NCBI GenBank assembly: GCA_048886185.1
Contig: JBHLKY010000022.1
Coordinates: 53,964 to 75,309 of the forward strand
Direction: 5' to 3'
DNA length: 21,346 nucleotides
Source of the DNA: Candidatus Hermodarchaeota archaeon
Lineage (GTDB): Archaea > Asgardarchaeota > Heimdallarchaeia > Hodarchaeales > Hodarchaeaceae
The position numbers and the translations under genes are program-made. The first letter of the stretch is position 1. Each line of letters starts with the position of its first letter. The notes beneath the pieces are model-generated. The model saw only the letters and a list, made by a program, of their open reading frames with translations, was not told where the DNA came from and did not search any database. Below are positions 7,701-10,939 of this stretch, in pieces.

Positions 7701-10700
7701 TTTTGAACAGGACAGGGGATCTATTTTGGTTTAGATTTGCATACAACACAAATTTTGTGGGAATAATTACACATTCTATTGAATTAACCTTTATTCTTAC
7801 AAATTTTGAATCCAGCTCTTTAAATGTCATTTTTAACGTTGTTAAAAGTCCTTTCATAGATTTAGATGCATTTGATGTTATTGATGAGATTCCTTGTACA
7901 AATGGAACCATTTACATTAGACATTTCTCCCCTAATGAATTCGATGAATTCTCTATATCGTTGAGCTACTATACAAATAAAACTGGTCGAATTCTGATTT
8001 CTACCCCTAATATTGCTTGTGATCTAACAATATGGATTGGTCAAGTAGAACAGGCAAATCATAATTGGACATTCATTTTTAATGGATCTGCAGTAGGTAC
8101 ATTCCTGATTAATATCTCATTTTCCCATGAAAATTATTCTTCCTTAACATTTACCATTCAATATGTTATTCAACCAGCAGATAGCAGTATAACTGACTAC
8201 TCTCCAAATATTATTGGTACTCCAAATGCAACAATCGATTCGGGAGACTTCTGTGATTTCTGGTTGGTCTGGAAAAGTGAATATAGTGAGAATCTAAATG
8301 ATTCGGATGGAGTAATGATTAATGATTCATCGATGATTTTCATCTCCTCTGATCCGAGTAATGGCACCCATTACTTTCGTTTTAGCGCGAGTGATGTGAA
8401 TGATTACATTATTTCAGTCATTTTCGAGACGAATTTATATACTCCCTTAGAGATAATTCTACATTTTCGGGTAGGAAATCGTACTTTAATTATCAATAAT
8501 GCTCTTTCTACTCATCCAAATAACTGGCTTAGCGAAGTTGGCTTTTTACAGTATGGAGACATCTATTATTTCCACATTGTTATCAATGATAGTGAGACAA
8601 ATAATGGTGTCAACATTAGCACATTCTCATGGTTACCAACTAATGTATCTTTTGTTAATGTATCTTCTGGAGATCATCTATTTACCTATCGTGCAGATAT
8701 CATTGCAACTACAACCTCTGTCTTAATTTCTATCCCATTTAAGCTTAGTAATTATGCTGACGCTTCATATAACATTAGATTTTATGTGAAAGTAGCTGAA
8801 TCAAGATTAGTATCTGTACCATCTACGATTACGACTTATTATTCCCAGGATACAAATTTTTCATTAATTTGGCAAACTGAATCCAATCCAAACGCCCCAT
8901 TCAGTCCAGTATTAAGGATTAATAGCTCTAGAATAATTACTTCCTCACCTTGTCTCTTCGATAATATTACAAATGGCAACTATTCATTCACAGTGTCAGC
9001 TAACCAGGCAGGAACCTATATAGTGACTTTTAACTTCTGGGCATCTAGGTTTGAAAATCAATCTACAGTTATTACTATTATTATCTTACCGTTACCAACA
9101 GAATTGTACTTGGTATCATTGGCCAATAATACCATAATAGGGCAAATAAGTCCGTTTTACTTCTCTGATCAGTACAATATAAGCCTTACATGGTTTGATT
9201 CTATCAATTTTATAGGCATTCGTGATTTCAGCCCAGATTACTTTGGTAACGGCTCAACAATGCTTTCTTTTAGTACTTCATTCAATAATGGTACTCATAA
9301 CTTCATTATTGAAGGAAATTCACTAGGTTTCTTCCAAGTGATAATTGTTTTTGAAATACCAAATCATGTAACTCTGAGGTATTCTGTTTTCATTAATGTC
9401 AGTATAATGCCCACTTCAGCCTTGGATATTACCAATTTCACCTACAATCATTCAATCATTGTTGAAGATATATTTTCAATCACAGGTAATGAAAGTTATC
9501 AGACTTTTCGTGGAACCTTCGTACCAAACACGTTCTCATTCAATGTGAAGATGAATGGCACCTCAGTTGGATTTGATGTTGAGAGAGATGAAAATTGGTT
9601 TAGGATTACTTTTTCGACAGCTGATAATCCATATGGAGATTATAACCTCACAATTCAAGTTAGTCTAACTGGGTATCAAAGTCAGATCATTAGTTTGAAT
9701 CTCACGTTACAAGGCCGTGAAACCATCCTTACTGTGACCTTACCTGGAAAATCTTTAGCACAGGGAGAAGCCATAAAAATATCAGTGTTGTTAAATTACA
9801 CTCAGCTCACAAATGGGGGTAGTGGTTCTGAGATTTTACTTGCTTCCTTGGAAAATGTCAACATTTCCTTTTATATTGAGCTTAAGACCAATGAGGATAT
9901 TATCAAAGTCACAGGTTCCAGTCTAACTGATGTGCTAGGCGAAGCAACCTTCCAAATAAGTGGAGATCTAACTGCTAGCGCTTTAGGATTCGCTAATATT
10001 ACTGTATGGTCTGATCGTTCTTCATCAGGACTACCATCTAGGTATAGCATACCTGCAGCGGAACTTGCCCAATACAAAATCGTTCAAATCTTTGATCCTC
10101 TTGAAATAATCATTCCTGTTGTGACAATTGGCGTGACATTACTCTTGGTTGTTGGAGCAGTAGTTGCGAGTAGTGTGGTCGTGAATCGCAGACGTAAACG
10201 AAGAAGGGCTTCGATTCAAGCAAGACGTAGGAAAATTGAACAGAGTTTTGAAGATATTAAATCCATCCGCTTGTTAATCGCTCGCCATGAATCAGGGTTA
10301 CAATTTTACTCTGAAAAAACCATTGCAGAATTACAAACTGATACTGATGCTTTGTCTGGGATGTCGGCTGCTTTGAGTACTTTTATGGAGGAAGTTTCAG
10401 ACGGAATGCGTTCACGTACAGAGGAACAGAAAGAGAAAGAAAAAATTGAGGTAATGAGCCGTGAAGGCCTTCACATGTTAATTTGGCATGGGAAATTCTC
10501 GAGTTTTATCATTATTTCAGAGATTAGGCTCCCTGATTATTTCCAAGAACGCCTCGCGAACCTAGGCCGGGAAGTTGAAGCTAAATTTGCTAATGATTTA
10601 CAAGACTTTTACAGGTCTGATCAGGTCCCCAGTAATCAGATAAAGAAAATGGTTCGAAAGCATATTCCCCTCCATTATTTCTCTGCATTTATTTTGAATG

Positions 10701-10939
10701 AGGGCGTATTAACTTTAGAGAGCATAAAATTATCAAGGAAAGAAATGAAAATGCTAAAGCTTATAAAGGAAATACGCTTTCAAAAAGAAGGGGTTCATTT
10801 CTTTTTCAGTGAACAAATAATCTCACACCTCTCTAGGCACTTTAAACGAAGTGAAGCAATCAAGTTTTTGGATCGAGCAATTGAGATAAACCTCTTAATT
10901 GAGGCTAGTCAGGAAGACATCTTGCGTATTACCAAATAA
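4748..10939 (+). CDS. Giant single-pass receptor-like surface protein (2063 aa): N-terminal signal/TM, multi-module glycosylated ectodomain, TM, polybasic linker, cytoplasmic longin-like domain and C-terminal helical/winged-helix-like domain
   Basis: N-terminal hydrophobic stretch MSVIIMIIGLIFTKILLPL; TM IIIPVVTIGVTLLLVVGAVVASSVVV (~10106-10183) followed by NRRRKRRR. Cytoplasmic IRLLIARHESGLQFYS...DALSGMSAALSTFMEEV...IEVMSREGLHMLIWHGKFSSFIIIS...LANLGREVEAKF fits the longin beta-beta-alpha-beta-beta-beta-alpha pattern typical of Asgard longin proteins. Confidence 0.88.
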   Translation: MNRLRYVLEKYHIGGMSVIIMIIGLIFTKILLPLPMNITFQDHHLDPDELAGNGSINTIQRLVNHPTPLLNQTAKDYLDSSYSTQESAIMPSFEIGNQIGIGGGVYEAYDSANLTSSVSLDVDDNHWRARPEEHENSLTVSIPSGYTNQSGYFNISGVTALPDWRLVENATTGATSRQSDSFFEGAQEFTINETDFNITKVYVYIDMVDNDGGDSQKPTGEFLVLGDNSGEPNSTDVKGFFSLETHPTLAGLTDGASWIASSNGWLEYTFSPAIHLTKGTYWLTFNDTIRDNGVGFWRWYTQSEGSGNPDKGEWNYKIALPNWFEWTGVDMVIMPQVLPVELVNSNYLNKKYTSPKSVEFLYQTSIDSTDLSTFTWFEWNGTSDNIHYFSTNTSVNFTIRWIINITDSNNPLPITASYLTVNNSISQWNLTFTTSSITTSYDIRNRLLTVNGLESDWNGSSISHGGSLEYNITPSGGLNTSVIYSNQSTQMIINASTLAVATDWNITFDAPNYILEFNISLGGTTLELPYQTFTMNDYSLDFEVIEIGNLTYWIDYPDGSQVLQKNNIDDSQTIITDIWAINSTLDQTTNINGTYSLQAFWNNLEKSKVGTFTRIVNMIVNSTFDFGYEAEVILDTHLDIVVYYNSTHNATVINNAILTGVPSWGATPLIDFNHTAAQGPYTFSIEVNDSQHNPGDIISIDISAELPGFVGHSTTVYVKVVSDTLLSINTSQELVLEWRENITIEIQYNDTGGSGIGAATIAVDGDSANVFNVANIYYYRFNSTNPKYGGVSSHLNLNITASHSNYLTRIWFFNLTINLGRTNISAIIDGNGAVYNDTLGTQIYYADSSADHVSILLRYYHKMTNENLSTFATIGIDPIPIIPILNSEEAADSTWNITFDPDQEAIYRIEITFSLTNYEDATFIFRLEVLKARTRLQTAYQNDTNVYYAEYYDFSLFFNNTDWNENITFNGEGPIAINDTNKVQFLNRTGDLFWFRFAYNTNFVGIITHSIELTFILTNFESSSLNVIFNVVKSPFIDLDAFDVIDEIPCTNGTIYIRHFSPNEFDEFSISLSYYTNKTGRILISTPNIACDLTIWIGQVEQANHNWTFIFNGSAVGTFLINISFSHENYSSLTFTIQYVIQPADSSITDYSPNIIGTPNATIDSGDFCDFWLVWKSEYSENLNDSDGVMINDSSMIFISSDPSNGTHYFRFSASDVNDYIISVIFETNLYTPLEIILHFRVGNRTLIINNALSTHPNNWLSEVGFLQYGDIYYFHIVINDSETNNGVNISTFSWLPTNVSFVNVSSGDHLFTYRADIIATTTSVLISIPFKLSNYADASYNIRFYVKVAESRLVSVPSTITTYYSQDTNFSLIWQTESNPNAPFSPVLRINSSRIITSSPCLFDNITNGNYSFTVSANQAGTYIVTFNFWASRFENQSTVITIIILPLPTELYLVSLANNTIIGQISPFYFSDQYNISLTWFDSINFIGIRDFSPDYFGNGSTMLSFSTSFNNGTHNFIIEGNSLGFFQVIIVFEIPNHVTLRYSVFINVSIMPTSALDITNFTYNHSIIVEDIFSITGNESYQTFRGTFVPNTFSFNVKMNGTSVGFDVERDENWFRITFSTADNPYGDYNLTIQVSLTGYQSQIISLNLTLQGRETILTVTLPGKSLAQGEAIKISVLLNYTQLTNGGSGSEILLASLENVNISFYIELKTNEDIIKVTGSSLTDVLGEATFQISGDLTASALGFANITVWSDRSSSGLPSRYSIPAAELAQYKIVQIFDPLEIIIPVVTIGVTLLLVVGAVVASSVVVNRRRKRRRASIQARRRKIEQSFEDIKSIRLLIARHESGLQFYSEKTIAELQTDTDALSGMSAALSTFMEEVSDGMRSRTEEQKEKEKIEVMSREGLHMLIWHGKFSSFIIISEIRLPDYFQERLANLGREVEAKFANDLQDFYRSDQVPSNQIKKMVRKHIPLHYFSAFILNEGVLTLESIKLSRKEMKMLKLIKEIRFQKEGVHFFFSEQIISHLSRHFKRSEAIKFLDRAIEINLLIEASQEDILRITK

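What the first reader, a model, noticed from the sequence alone, without database searches (positions are those of the whole stretch)
10106..10939. Longin domain fused as the cytoplasmic tail of a 2000-aa single-pass receptor
Seen: TM, then a highly basic helix (NRRRKRRRASIQARRRKIEQSFEDI), then a ~135-aa longin-pattern domain (~10265-10670), then a further ~85-aa domain. Established: eukaryotic longins are soluble trafficking or GTPase-regulator subunits or part of SNAREs, and Asgard genomes are rich in longins. Inference: a receptor whose output domain is a longin would link extracellular adhesion directly to GTPase regulators. The polybasic helix may also bind anionic lipids.
Basis: partly seen in the sequence, partly recalled or inferred. 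Interest (0 to 1): 0.75.

Follow-up and report, generated by a model that had tools for sequence, protein, structure and literature searches.

The report
Longin-tailed Asgard surface glycoprotein family
The cytoplasmic tail of this 2063-residue archaeal surface glycoprotein folds as a longin domain plus a small winged-helix-like domain. The same tail follows a membrane helix on many surface proteins across Asgard archaea, so these cells anchor a eukaryote-type trafficking or GTPase-platform fold under their surface coat, but its partner is still unknown.

Summary
ORF 4748-10939 encodes a 2063-aa protein with these parts:
- an N-terminal signal/anchor;
- a ~1750-aa ectodomain with 80 N-x-S/T sequons;
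- one TM helix (aa 1786-1812);
- a polybasic helix;
- an ~85-aa winged-helix-like domain.

Pfam, NCBIfam and PDB sequence searches do not recognise the tail.

The tail is a conserved cassette. A profile of it finds matches in 385 of 400 Asgard genomes, usually in several copies. It almost always sits directly after a TM helix of sequon-rich proteins of 750 to over 3000 aa. Five such proteins are in this Hodarchaeales genome.

No GTPase lies in the window, and a 20-versus-20 locus survey showed no enrichment of GTPases near tail genes. The gene 45 nt downstream encodes a roadblock-like plus folliculin/SMCR8-type longin plus coiled-coil protein, followed by a gelsolin. This order is kept in 15 same-genus loci. 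A complex prediction gave no answer.

Verdict: a real, new architecture of a known fold. The "receptor-to-GTPase" function remains inference. First readers of this scan noted similar tails in three other genomes.

The parts
4748..10939 (+). Gene for the 2063-aa single-pass surface glycoprotein (P0001)
   Evidence: Open frame. Orthologs of 67-89% tail identity in 15 same-genus loci.
4781..4861 (+). N-terminal hydrophobic signal/anchor segment (aa 12-38), preceded by basic residues
   Evidence: Hydropathy 2.4 over 19-aa windows.
4862..10102 (+). Ectodomain (aa 39-1785): Asn/Ser/Thr-rich, Cys-poor, internally repetitive, 80 N-x-S/T sequons
   Evidence: No Pfam or NCBIfam family. Paralogous to the ectodomain of the upstream gene (33% identity over 671 aa, E 1e-76).
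10103..10183 (+). Transmembrane helix (aa 1786-1812)
   Evidence: Hydropathy 2.77. A hydrophobic segment in the same position in 16 of 16 full-length homologs and 24 of 27 ORFs from other Asgard families.
10184..10261 (+). Juxtamembrane helix (aa 1813-1838): polybasic first half (+10 in 16 residues), conserved amphipathic second half leading into strand 1
   Evidence: Modelled as one helix, tail residues 2-26, pLDDT 92-95. Family median charge +6 for the first 16 residues; I18, D24 and I25 conserved.
10265..10684 (+). Longin-fold domain (aa 1840-1979; b-b-a-b-b-b-a-a)
10685..10936 (+). C-terminal winged-helix-like domain (aa 1980-2063)
   Evidence: Model order H-S-H-H-S-H. Only sub-significant sequence matches, but all to winged-helix folds: MCM WH E 0.13, MepR/MarR 0.03, S25 0.27, DEPTOR DEP 0.54, WH_MCM2 0.0011 in one member. 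Atlas clusters carrying TrmB or HTH_47.
10985..11923 (+). Downstream gene P0002 (312 aa): roadblock/longin-like domain, folliculin/SMCR8-type longin domain, coiled coil. Likely co-transcribed.
12038..13201 (+). Gelsolin-repeat gene P0003, third member of the conserved gene order
   Evidence: Pfam Gelsolin E 7e-23. Follows P0002 in the orthologous loci. T7 and T6 runs occur only after this gene.
1..4353 (+). Upstream paralogous giant single-pass glycoprotein (5'-truncated by the window) with an unrelated cytoplasmic tail
   Evidence: hhalign of its tail against the C-terminal-domain profile gave probability 0.4%.

Best explanation
The stretch encodes the membrane anchor and cytoplasmic tail of a giant N-glycosylated surface protein of a Hodarchaeales (Asgard) archaeon. 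The tail has three parts: (1) a helix that continues from the TM segment, with a polybasic start that should lie on the anionic inner leaflet; (2) a longin-fold domain; (3) a small winged-helix-like domain.

Shown: the fold, the inside topology, and that this longin plus winged-helix cassette is a portable, pan-Asgard module. It sits directly behind a TM helix on many unrelated ectodomains, and in some lineages on soluble beta-propeller proteins.

Inferred: the cassette is a protein-docking and dimerisation platform held at a fixed short distance under the membrane. Through it, surface glycoproteins are coupled to cytoplasmic partners. The most plausible partners are other longin/roadblock proteins (here the co-transcribed folliculin-type longin protein) and, through them, small GTPases or the actin system (the adjacent gelsolin). 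The tail itself lacks the GP motif of GAP-type longins, so it is more likely a scaffold than a catalytic subunit.
For: Fold:
- AF2 on a 55-sequence alignment gave pLDDT 86 and pTM 0.79.
- The tail profile also hits a standalone 150-aa protein of this genome at E 2e-9. That protein has sub-threshold Pfam Longin (5.8e-4) and Fuz_longin_1 matches.

Topology.

Module character:
- 74 representatives, always C-terminal, in proteins up to 3172 aa.
- 385 of 400 Asgard genomes and 82 of 85 genera, in several copies.
- Five TM-anchored copies in this genome.
- 24 of 27 ORFs from other families have a TM just before the tail. The other 3 carry an FG-GAP/BBS7/ITFG2-like propeller instead.
- Atlas models of 734-764-aa Asgard proteins match the whole two-domain tail at TM 0.66-0.75.

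Partner lead:
- The order giant gene, P0002, gelsolin is kept in 15 orthologous loci, down to 55% P0002 identity.
- P0002 is a FLCN/SMCR8/Lst4-type longin. It has the GP motif and an invariant Arg, features described for Asgard GAP-type longins (PMC12290439).
- The intergenic gaps lack T-runs.
Against: - No binding partner is shown.
- Ras-like genes are not enriched near tail genes: 6/20 tail loci versus 6/20 control loci.
- P0002 occurs only in a narrow Hodarchaeales clade (52 relatives, all at least 52% identical). Its paralogs do not neighbour the other tail genes of this genome. It therefore cannot be the general partner of a pan-Asgard module.
- No Pfam longin model reaches its threshold on any of the 55 tails, so the longin assignment rests on a predicted structure.
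- The winged-helix assignment rests on sub-significant matches.
- Same-genus synteny may simply be inherited.
Confidence: 0.55

Rival explanations
1. Structural anchor rather than signalling device. The longin plus winged-helix tails self-associate under the membrane to cluster, order or immobilise the glycoprotein coat (S-layer-like or glycocalyx proteins), with no information flow to GTPases.
For: - The same tail sits on many different ectodomains, in tandem gene arrays of ~760-aa proteins, and in nearly every Asgard genome. This pattern is typical of generic anchoring modules.
- Longin and roadblock domains commonly dimerise; the Lokiarchaeota longin 8yqg is deposited as a dimer (title).
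- GTPases are not enriched nearby.
- N-glycosylated S-layer proteins conserved across the phylum are reported for a cultured Hodarchaeales strain (bioRxiv 10.1101/2025.02.26.640444). Whether they carry this tail could not be checked.
Against: The cassette also occurs on soluble propeller proteins without a TM helix. Its longin part occurs on a HerA-like ATPase and an MFS transporter. A pure coat-anchoring role does not explain these. Self-association was not tested here.
Confidence: 0.22
2. Sorting or trafficking tag. The tail is recognised by cellular machinery (ESCRT, coat-like or vesicle/protrusion-targeting factors) that delivers or removes these surface proteins. This would be analogous to how longin domains of VAMP7 or Sec22b are read by adaptors and COPII.
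For: The best structural matches are cargo-type longins seen in complex with coat or adaptor proteins (Sec22b-Sec23/24, VAMP7-AP3, VAMP7-Hrb). Winged-helix domains are the building block of ESCRT-II (established knowledge).
Against: No coat, adaptor or ESCRT gene is in the window. There is no experimental evidence for cargo sorting in Asgard cells. This reading is entirely by analogy.
Confidence: 0.1
3. Membrane-tethered regulator. The C-terminal winged helix binds nucleic acid, and the tail acts like a ToxR/CadC-type or proteolytically released (Notch-like) transcription factor, with the longin domain as a regulatory or dimerisation element.
For: The weak sequence matches of the last domain are to DNA-binding winged helices (MarR/MepR, MCM WH, DnaD_N, TrmB).
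Against: The domain is only mildly basic (family median net charge +2, range -9 to +8) and has no invariant residues. That is unlike a conserved DNA-reading head. Dozens of paralogs per genome would be unusual for such regulators.
Confidence: 0.05
4. The alpha/beta domain is really a roadblock/LC7 (MglB-like) or another profilin-like fold, and the longin call is an artefact of the model.
Against: Longin matches score 3-4 Z units higher and extend over the two C-terminal helices (27-167), whereas roadblock matches end at about 141. The N-terminal helix is the continuation of the TM segment.
Confidence: 0.06

Closest known systems
Longin SNAREs (Sec22b, VAMP7, Ykt6) and plant phytolongins
   Different: In those proteins the longin is N-terminal and the TM is a C-terminal tail anchor with almost no lumenal part. 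Here the order is reversed, a ~1750-aa glycosylated ectodomain precedes the TM, there is no SNARE motif, and a winged-helix-like domain follows.
TRAPP longin subunits synbindin/TRAPPC4 and sedlin/TRAPPC2
   Different: They are soluble subunits of a multi-protein GEF. No TRAPP partner, Rab contact residues or gene linkage were shown here.
Lokiarchaeota Roadblock-Longin protein (PDB 8yqg, 8yqk) and other soluble Asgard longins
   Different: The described forms are soluble or fused to GTPases, TRAPPC3 or two-component domains. In the papers searched I found no description of a longin as the tail of single-pass surface glycoproteins.
Folliculin / SMCR8 / NPRL2 GAP-type longins
   Different: The tail has G38 followed by L/V/I rather than the GP motif of the b1-b2 loop (motif from PMC12290439). 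These families match it less well than SNARE/TRAPP-type longins do.
Roadblock/LC7 proteins (MglB, LAMTOR2/3)
   Same: Shared five-stranded core and a helix before strand 1. They work as dimeric GTPase platforms.
   Different: Lower scores, and the matches cover only residues 23-141. The two C-terminal helices typical of longins are present in the tail.
Eukaryotic single-pass adhesion receptors (integrins, cadherins) and bacterial ToxR/CadC-type one-component membrane sensors
   Same: Overall logic only: a large extracellular part, one TM helix, a basic juxtamembrane stretch and a short cytoplasmic adaptor-binding or winged-helix tail.
   Different: No sequence or fold relation of the ectodomain or tail to them. 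This is a functional analogy, not a test.

Membership tests
Longin fold (SNARE-like superfamily) | Secondary-structure order b-b-a-b-b-b-a-a | tested here: met
   DSSP of the AF2 model: E28-35, E40-45, H54-76, E87-93, E96-102, E106-112, H119-140, H150-160.
Longin fold (SNARE-like superfamily) | Closer in 3D to solved longins than to roadblock or other profilin-like folds, with the C-terminal helices aligned | tested here: met
Longin fold (SNARE-like superfamily) | Match to a curated longin-family sequence model (PF13774, PF19036, PF04099, PF04628, PF01217 and others) above threshold | tested here: not met
   No Pfam or NCBIfam hit for the tail. Among 55 family members there was only one Fuz_longin_1 hit, at E 0.02. 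There is an indirect link through the standalone protein L030: E 2e-9 to the tail profile and Pfam Longin 5.8e-4, below the cut-off.
Longin SNARE (VAMP7/Sec22/Ykt6 type) | SNARE motif after the longin domain and a C-terminal membrane anchor | tested here: not met
   The TM precedes the longin. The sequence after it is an ~85-aa winged-helix-like domain, not a heptad coiled coil.
GAP-type longin (FLCN/SMCR8/NPRL2) | GP motif in the b1-b2 loop | tested here: not met
   In the tail family, invariant G38 is followed by L/V/I, consensus G-L-x-F-Y. The motif definition comes from PMC12290439. The neighbour P0002 does have invariant F118, D119, D120, G123 and P124.
GAP-type longin (FLCN/SMCR8/NPRL2) | Catalytic arginine finger placed at the GTPase-facing loop | tested here: inconclusive
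   Conserved basic positions exist (R29, R34, R93 in 69-84% of members).
Roadblock/LC7 | N-terminal helix packing on the sheet, no second C-terminal helix, Pfam PF03259 match | tested here: inconclusive
   A helix (residues 2-26) precedes strand 1, but it is the extension of the TM helix. C-terminal helices are present. There is no PF03259 hit. Roadblock matches score lower.
Winged-helix domain (C-terminal ~85 aa) | H1-S1-H2-H3-S2(-S3) topology and a significant match to a winged-helix family | tested here: inconclusive
   The topology is compatible (H185-194, E204-208, H209-216, H222-234, E238-240). All sequence matches are sub-significant but go consistently to winged helices. The domain was not folded and searched on its own.
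Type I single-pass surface glycoprotein | N-terminal signal, one TM helix, positive-inside flank, glycosylation sequons confined to the N-terminal side | tested here: met
   and the same in 16 full-length homologs and 24 of 27 distant family members. Signal cleavage and actual glycosylation cannot be tested here.

The most novel reading that the evidence does not exclude
The longin plus winged-helix tail is the output module of a pan-Asgard class of receptor-like surface proteins. Contact or ligand binding by the ectodomain changes tail clustering. Clustering recruits soluble folliculin-type longin proteins (here P0002) to form a membrane-bound GAP/GEF platform for Ras/Arf/Rag-like GTPases, and this steers gelsolin-controlled actin remodelling of protrusions. 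That would be a prokaryotic forerunner of outside-in adhesion signalling and of membrane-anchored longin platforms such as Ragulator-folliculin.
Probability: 0.12. Interest if true: 0.9.

Novelty: new variant of a known kind. Interest (0 to 1): 0.6.

Why it matters
Asgard archaea encode dozens of longin and roadblock proteins, and their cellular roles are unknown because almost all are soluble proteins without context. This family gives a longin a fixed address: the inner face of the plasma membrane, directly beneath large glycosylated surface proteins, in nearly every Asgard genome examined.

That turns a vague question (what do Asgard longins do?) into a tractable one. The tail is a short, well-folded bait for pull-downs, crosslinking MS and structure work in the Hodarchaeales and Lokiarchaeia strains that can now be cultured.

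If the tail recruits GTPase regulators or actin factors, then coupling of the cell surface to the GTPase/cytoskeleton network predates eukaryotes. If it only anchors or orders the coat, it explains how Asgard surface proteins are organised in cells that often lack a classical S-layer.

Tried and rejected
- Sequence annotation of the tail: Pfam, NCBIfam and PDB sequence searches with the single tail or the profile gave nothing significant.
- The search for related loci with the tail alignment failed because no stretch was conserved enough. The genome search was used instead.
- Complex prediction of tail residues 17-251 with P0002, both given as alignments, returned "no answer" (score 0.00, controls not run). 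This is neither for nor against binding.
- The look-up of sequencing runs listed no RNA holder, only sediment metagenomes that may be the source of this DNA.
- GTPase neighbourhood: 20 tail loci and 20 control loci on the same contigs each had 6 loci with a Ras-like ORF within about 8 kb (9 versus 8 ORFs). A directly adjacent same-strand GTPase occurred at 3 surveyed tail loci and at one paralog of this genome. That is not clearly above expectation, and related genomes are not independent.
- P0002 paralogs in this genome do not sit beside the other tail genes.
- The tail of the upstream paralog is unrelated to the C-terminal domain profile.
- Literature: four full-text searches and eight papers read found no description of TM-anchored longin tails on Asgard surface proteins. 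Klinger et al. 2016 is not held. Absence from this library does not prove that the architecture is unpublished; the asCOG supplementary tables were not checked.
- Presence of the module outside Asgard archaea was not tested.
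Full report
**What is in the sequence.** The finding lies at the 3' end of a 6192-nt open frame, 4748-10939 on the + strand, 2063 codons.
- A hydropathy scan finds an N-terminal hydrophobic segment (aa 12-38) and a strong one at aa 1786-1812. The run NRRRKRRR follows the second directly, at aa 1813 = nt 10184.
- The ~1750 residues between the two segments are rich in Asn, Ser and Thr, poor in Cys, Lys and Arg, and carry 80 N-x-S/T sequons. Density is even, 4.3-5.0 per 100 aa, in every quarter, including both sides of a weaker hydrophobic patch at 1440-1459.
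- The 251 residues after the TM helix have no sequon and 46 Lys+Arg.
- So the ectodomain is outside and the tail inside.

**Is the tail a real, conserved unit?**
- A full HMMER scan of 1.84 billion cluster representatives with the tail alone gave 74 hits at E<1e-3, 51 of them below 1e-10. In the full-length hits the match lies at the very C-terminus, in proteins of up to 3172 aa; the shorter hits end with it too or look like fragments.
- Named relatives are labelled Hodarchaeales, Hodarchaeota or Heimdallarchaeota. They are called hypothetical or, for their ectodomains, DUF2341 proteins.
- A 55-sequence alignment (A1) has invariant G38 and A63 and near-invariant G59 and E132.
- A profile of A1 finds matches at E<=1e-5 in 385 of 400 genomes of the phylum: 90 of 90 high-quality genomes and 82 of 85 genera, usually several per genome.
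- In this genome the profile finds five giant proteins (2064, 2037, 1464, 1634 and 2192 aa) with a TM helix immediately before the tail. Weaker hits go to the longin part alone: in a HerA/DUF87-type ATPase, in an MFS transporter and in standalone 150-258-aa proteins.
- In 16 full-length homologs, and in 24 of 27 tail-bearing ORFs taken from other Asgard families (mostly ~760 aa, often in tandem arrays), a hydrophobic segment and a Lys/Arg-rich flank precede the tail. Sequons are confined to the N-terminal side.
- Three ORFs from one family lack the TM helix. They carry an FG-GAP/BBS2/BBS7/ITFG2-like propeller and a zinc ribbon in front of the same cassette.
- The cassette is therefore a portable module, mostly used as the cytoplasmic end of single-pass glycoproteins.

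**What fold is it?** Sequence libraries do not recognise it: Pfam, NCBIfam and PDB sequences, with the single sequence or the profile.
- AlphaFold2 on A1 gives a confident model, mean pLDDT 86 and pTM 0.79. One helix (tail residues 2-26) continues from the membrane. Then come b-b-a-b-b-b followed by helices 119-140 and 150-160, and then a small H-S-H-H-S-H domain.
- An exhaustive structural comparison with 48,161 PDB representatives puts longins at the top:

|---|---|
| Sec22b | 12.7 (122 residues, 3.3 A) |
| synbindin | 12.7 |
| sedlin | 12.2 |
| VAMP7 | 11.7 |
| a CPLANE-complex chain (7q3d_C) | 10.9 |
| Lokiarchaeota Roadblock-Longin protein, longin domain | 10.5 |

- AP sigma and mu subunits, Lst4, Ykt6 and SRX follow. 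All span residues ~27-167.
- Roadblocks score lower (MglC 9.2, MglB 8.2, Asgard roadblocks 7.7-7.8) and cover only ~23-141.
- Foldseek agrees: AP2 sigma at E 8e-4 and Sec22b at target-normalised TM 0.70.
- An indirect sequence link exists. The tail profile hits a standalone 150-aa protein of this genome at E 2e-9, and that protein has sub-threshold Pfam Longin and Fuz_longin_1 matches.
- I therefore accept "longin fold", with two caveats: it rests on a predicted model, and no curated longin sequence model is met.
- The b1-b2 loop has G followed by L/V/I. It lacks the GP motif that marks the GAP-type longins FLCN, SMCR8 and NPRL2 (PMC12290439).

**The last domain.** Every sequence-level match is below significance, but all point to winged helices:
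- MCM C-terminal WH, E 0.13;
- MepR/MarR 0.03, ribosomal S25 0.27, DEPTOR DEP 0.54;
- WH_MCM2 0.0011 and DnaD_N in single members;
- Atlas clusters carrying TrmB or HTH_47.

The domain has no invariant residue and only a mild positive charge, family median +2. I call it winged-helix-like with moderate confidence, and consider it more likely a protein-binding than a DNA-binding unit.

**Surroundings.**
- Upstream (1-4353) lies a paralogous giant glycoprotein. Its ectodomain is 33% identical over 671 aa and its tail is unrelated.
- Downstream, after 45 nt without a T-run, lies P0002 (312 aa). After a further 114 nt comes a gelsolin-repeat protein (Pfam 7e-23). T7 and T6 runs come only after the gelsolin gene.
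- This order is kept in all 15 orthologous loci of the genus, at tail identity 67-89% and P0002 identity 55-80%.
- P0002 has no Pfam family. Its AF2 model (pLDDT 82) shows a roadblock/longin-like first domain, a second longin and a 70-residue coiled coil.
- P0002 is confined to a narrow clade: 52 relatives, all at least 52% identical. Its paralogs do not neighbour the other tail genes of this genome.

**Test of the GTPase idea.**
- The window holds no GTPase.
- The genome gives 63 Ras-family (PF00071) matches, 62 above the curated cut-off. Only the contig-12 paralog is flanked by them: three on the same strand, one with internal stops.
- I fetched 20 tail loci (about 8 kb either side) from 19 other genomes and 20 control loci from the same contigs, and searched them with a Ras-like HMM built from this genome. 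The result was 6 of 20 loci with a hit in each set. A GTPase is directly adjacent at 3 tail loci.
- There is no measurable enrichment.
- A complex prediction of the tail with P0002 returned no answer. No RNA data were found.

**Interpretation.**
- Shown: a pan-Asgard, mostly membrane-anchored longin plus winged-helix-like cassette on the cytoplasmic side of surface glycoproteins.
- Inferred: it serves as a docking or dimerisation platform. In this lineage it may work with the co-transcribed folliculin-type longin protein and gelsolin.
- Rivals: a purely structural coat-anchoring role, a sorting-tag role, and a membrane-tethered winged-helix regulator. The first of these is a serious alternative.

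**Novelty.** The papers I could search describe soluble Asgard longins and fusions to GTPases, TRAPPC3 or two-component domains, but not this architecture. First readers of this scan noted similar tails in three other genomes and in paralogs of this genome. None of those notes shows a follow-up check.

Noticed in passing
window 10985-11923 (+): P0002 has no Pfam family. Its model shows a roadblock/longin-like domain, a folliculin/SMCR8/Lst4-type longin with an invariant FDD..GP motif and an invariant G-R (candidate arginine finger), and a long coiled coil. It is restricted to a narrow Hodarchaeales clade and always lies between the longin-tailed giant gene and a gelsolin gene.
   Followed up: yes
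window 12038-13201 (+): A gelsolin-repeat protein with two repeats, a Pro-rich linker and an unassigned ~90-aa C-terminal domain. It is one of only three gelsolin-repeat genes found in this genome (four Pfam matches, two of them in this gene).
   Followed up: partly
window 1-4353 (+): The upstream giant glycoprotein is a tandem paralog of the ectodomain (33% identity, internal repeats). It ends in a different cytoplasmic tail: a ~90-aa linker plus a small helical domain. Tails therefore appear to be swapped between paralogs.
   Followed up: partly
L050:7980-10163 (-), L055:6507-8663 (+), L057:6465-8663 (+): In another family of the same class, the same longin plus winged-helix cassette (E about 1e-35 to the tail profile) ends soluble ~720-733-aa proteins. 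For L050 and L055 the N-terminus was scanned against Pfam and is an FG-GAP beta-propeller with sub-threshold BBS2/BBS7/ITFG2 matches (plus a zinc-ribbon match in L050). L057 was not scanned.
   Followed up: partly
L035 (G000:C8:117297-119978) and L037 (G000:C19:78278-79969): The longin part of the tail profile also matches a HerA/DUF87-type ATPase (894 aa, domain at 515-668) and the C-terminus of a multi-pass MFS transporter (564 aa, domain at 432-533) in this genome.
   Followed up: partly
G000:C12:141390-151109 (L036 covers the giant gene): The 2192-aa tail-bearing paralog on contig 12 is flanked on the same strand by three Ras-like GTPase genes. One of them (149229-149744) has three in-frame stops and looks like a pseudogene.
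   Followed up: no
L038, L043, L051, L053, L056: In other Asgard families, the ~750-790-aa tail-bearing glycoprotein genes occur as tandem arrays of two or three paralogs.
   Followed up: no
L039:12862-13764 (+): A 301-aa ORF matches both the Ras-like HMM and the tail (longin) profile. It is a GTPase-longin fusion lying 2.6 kb from a tail-bearing surface-protein gene.
   Followed up: no
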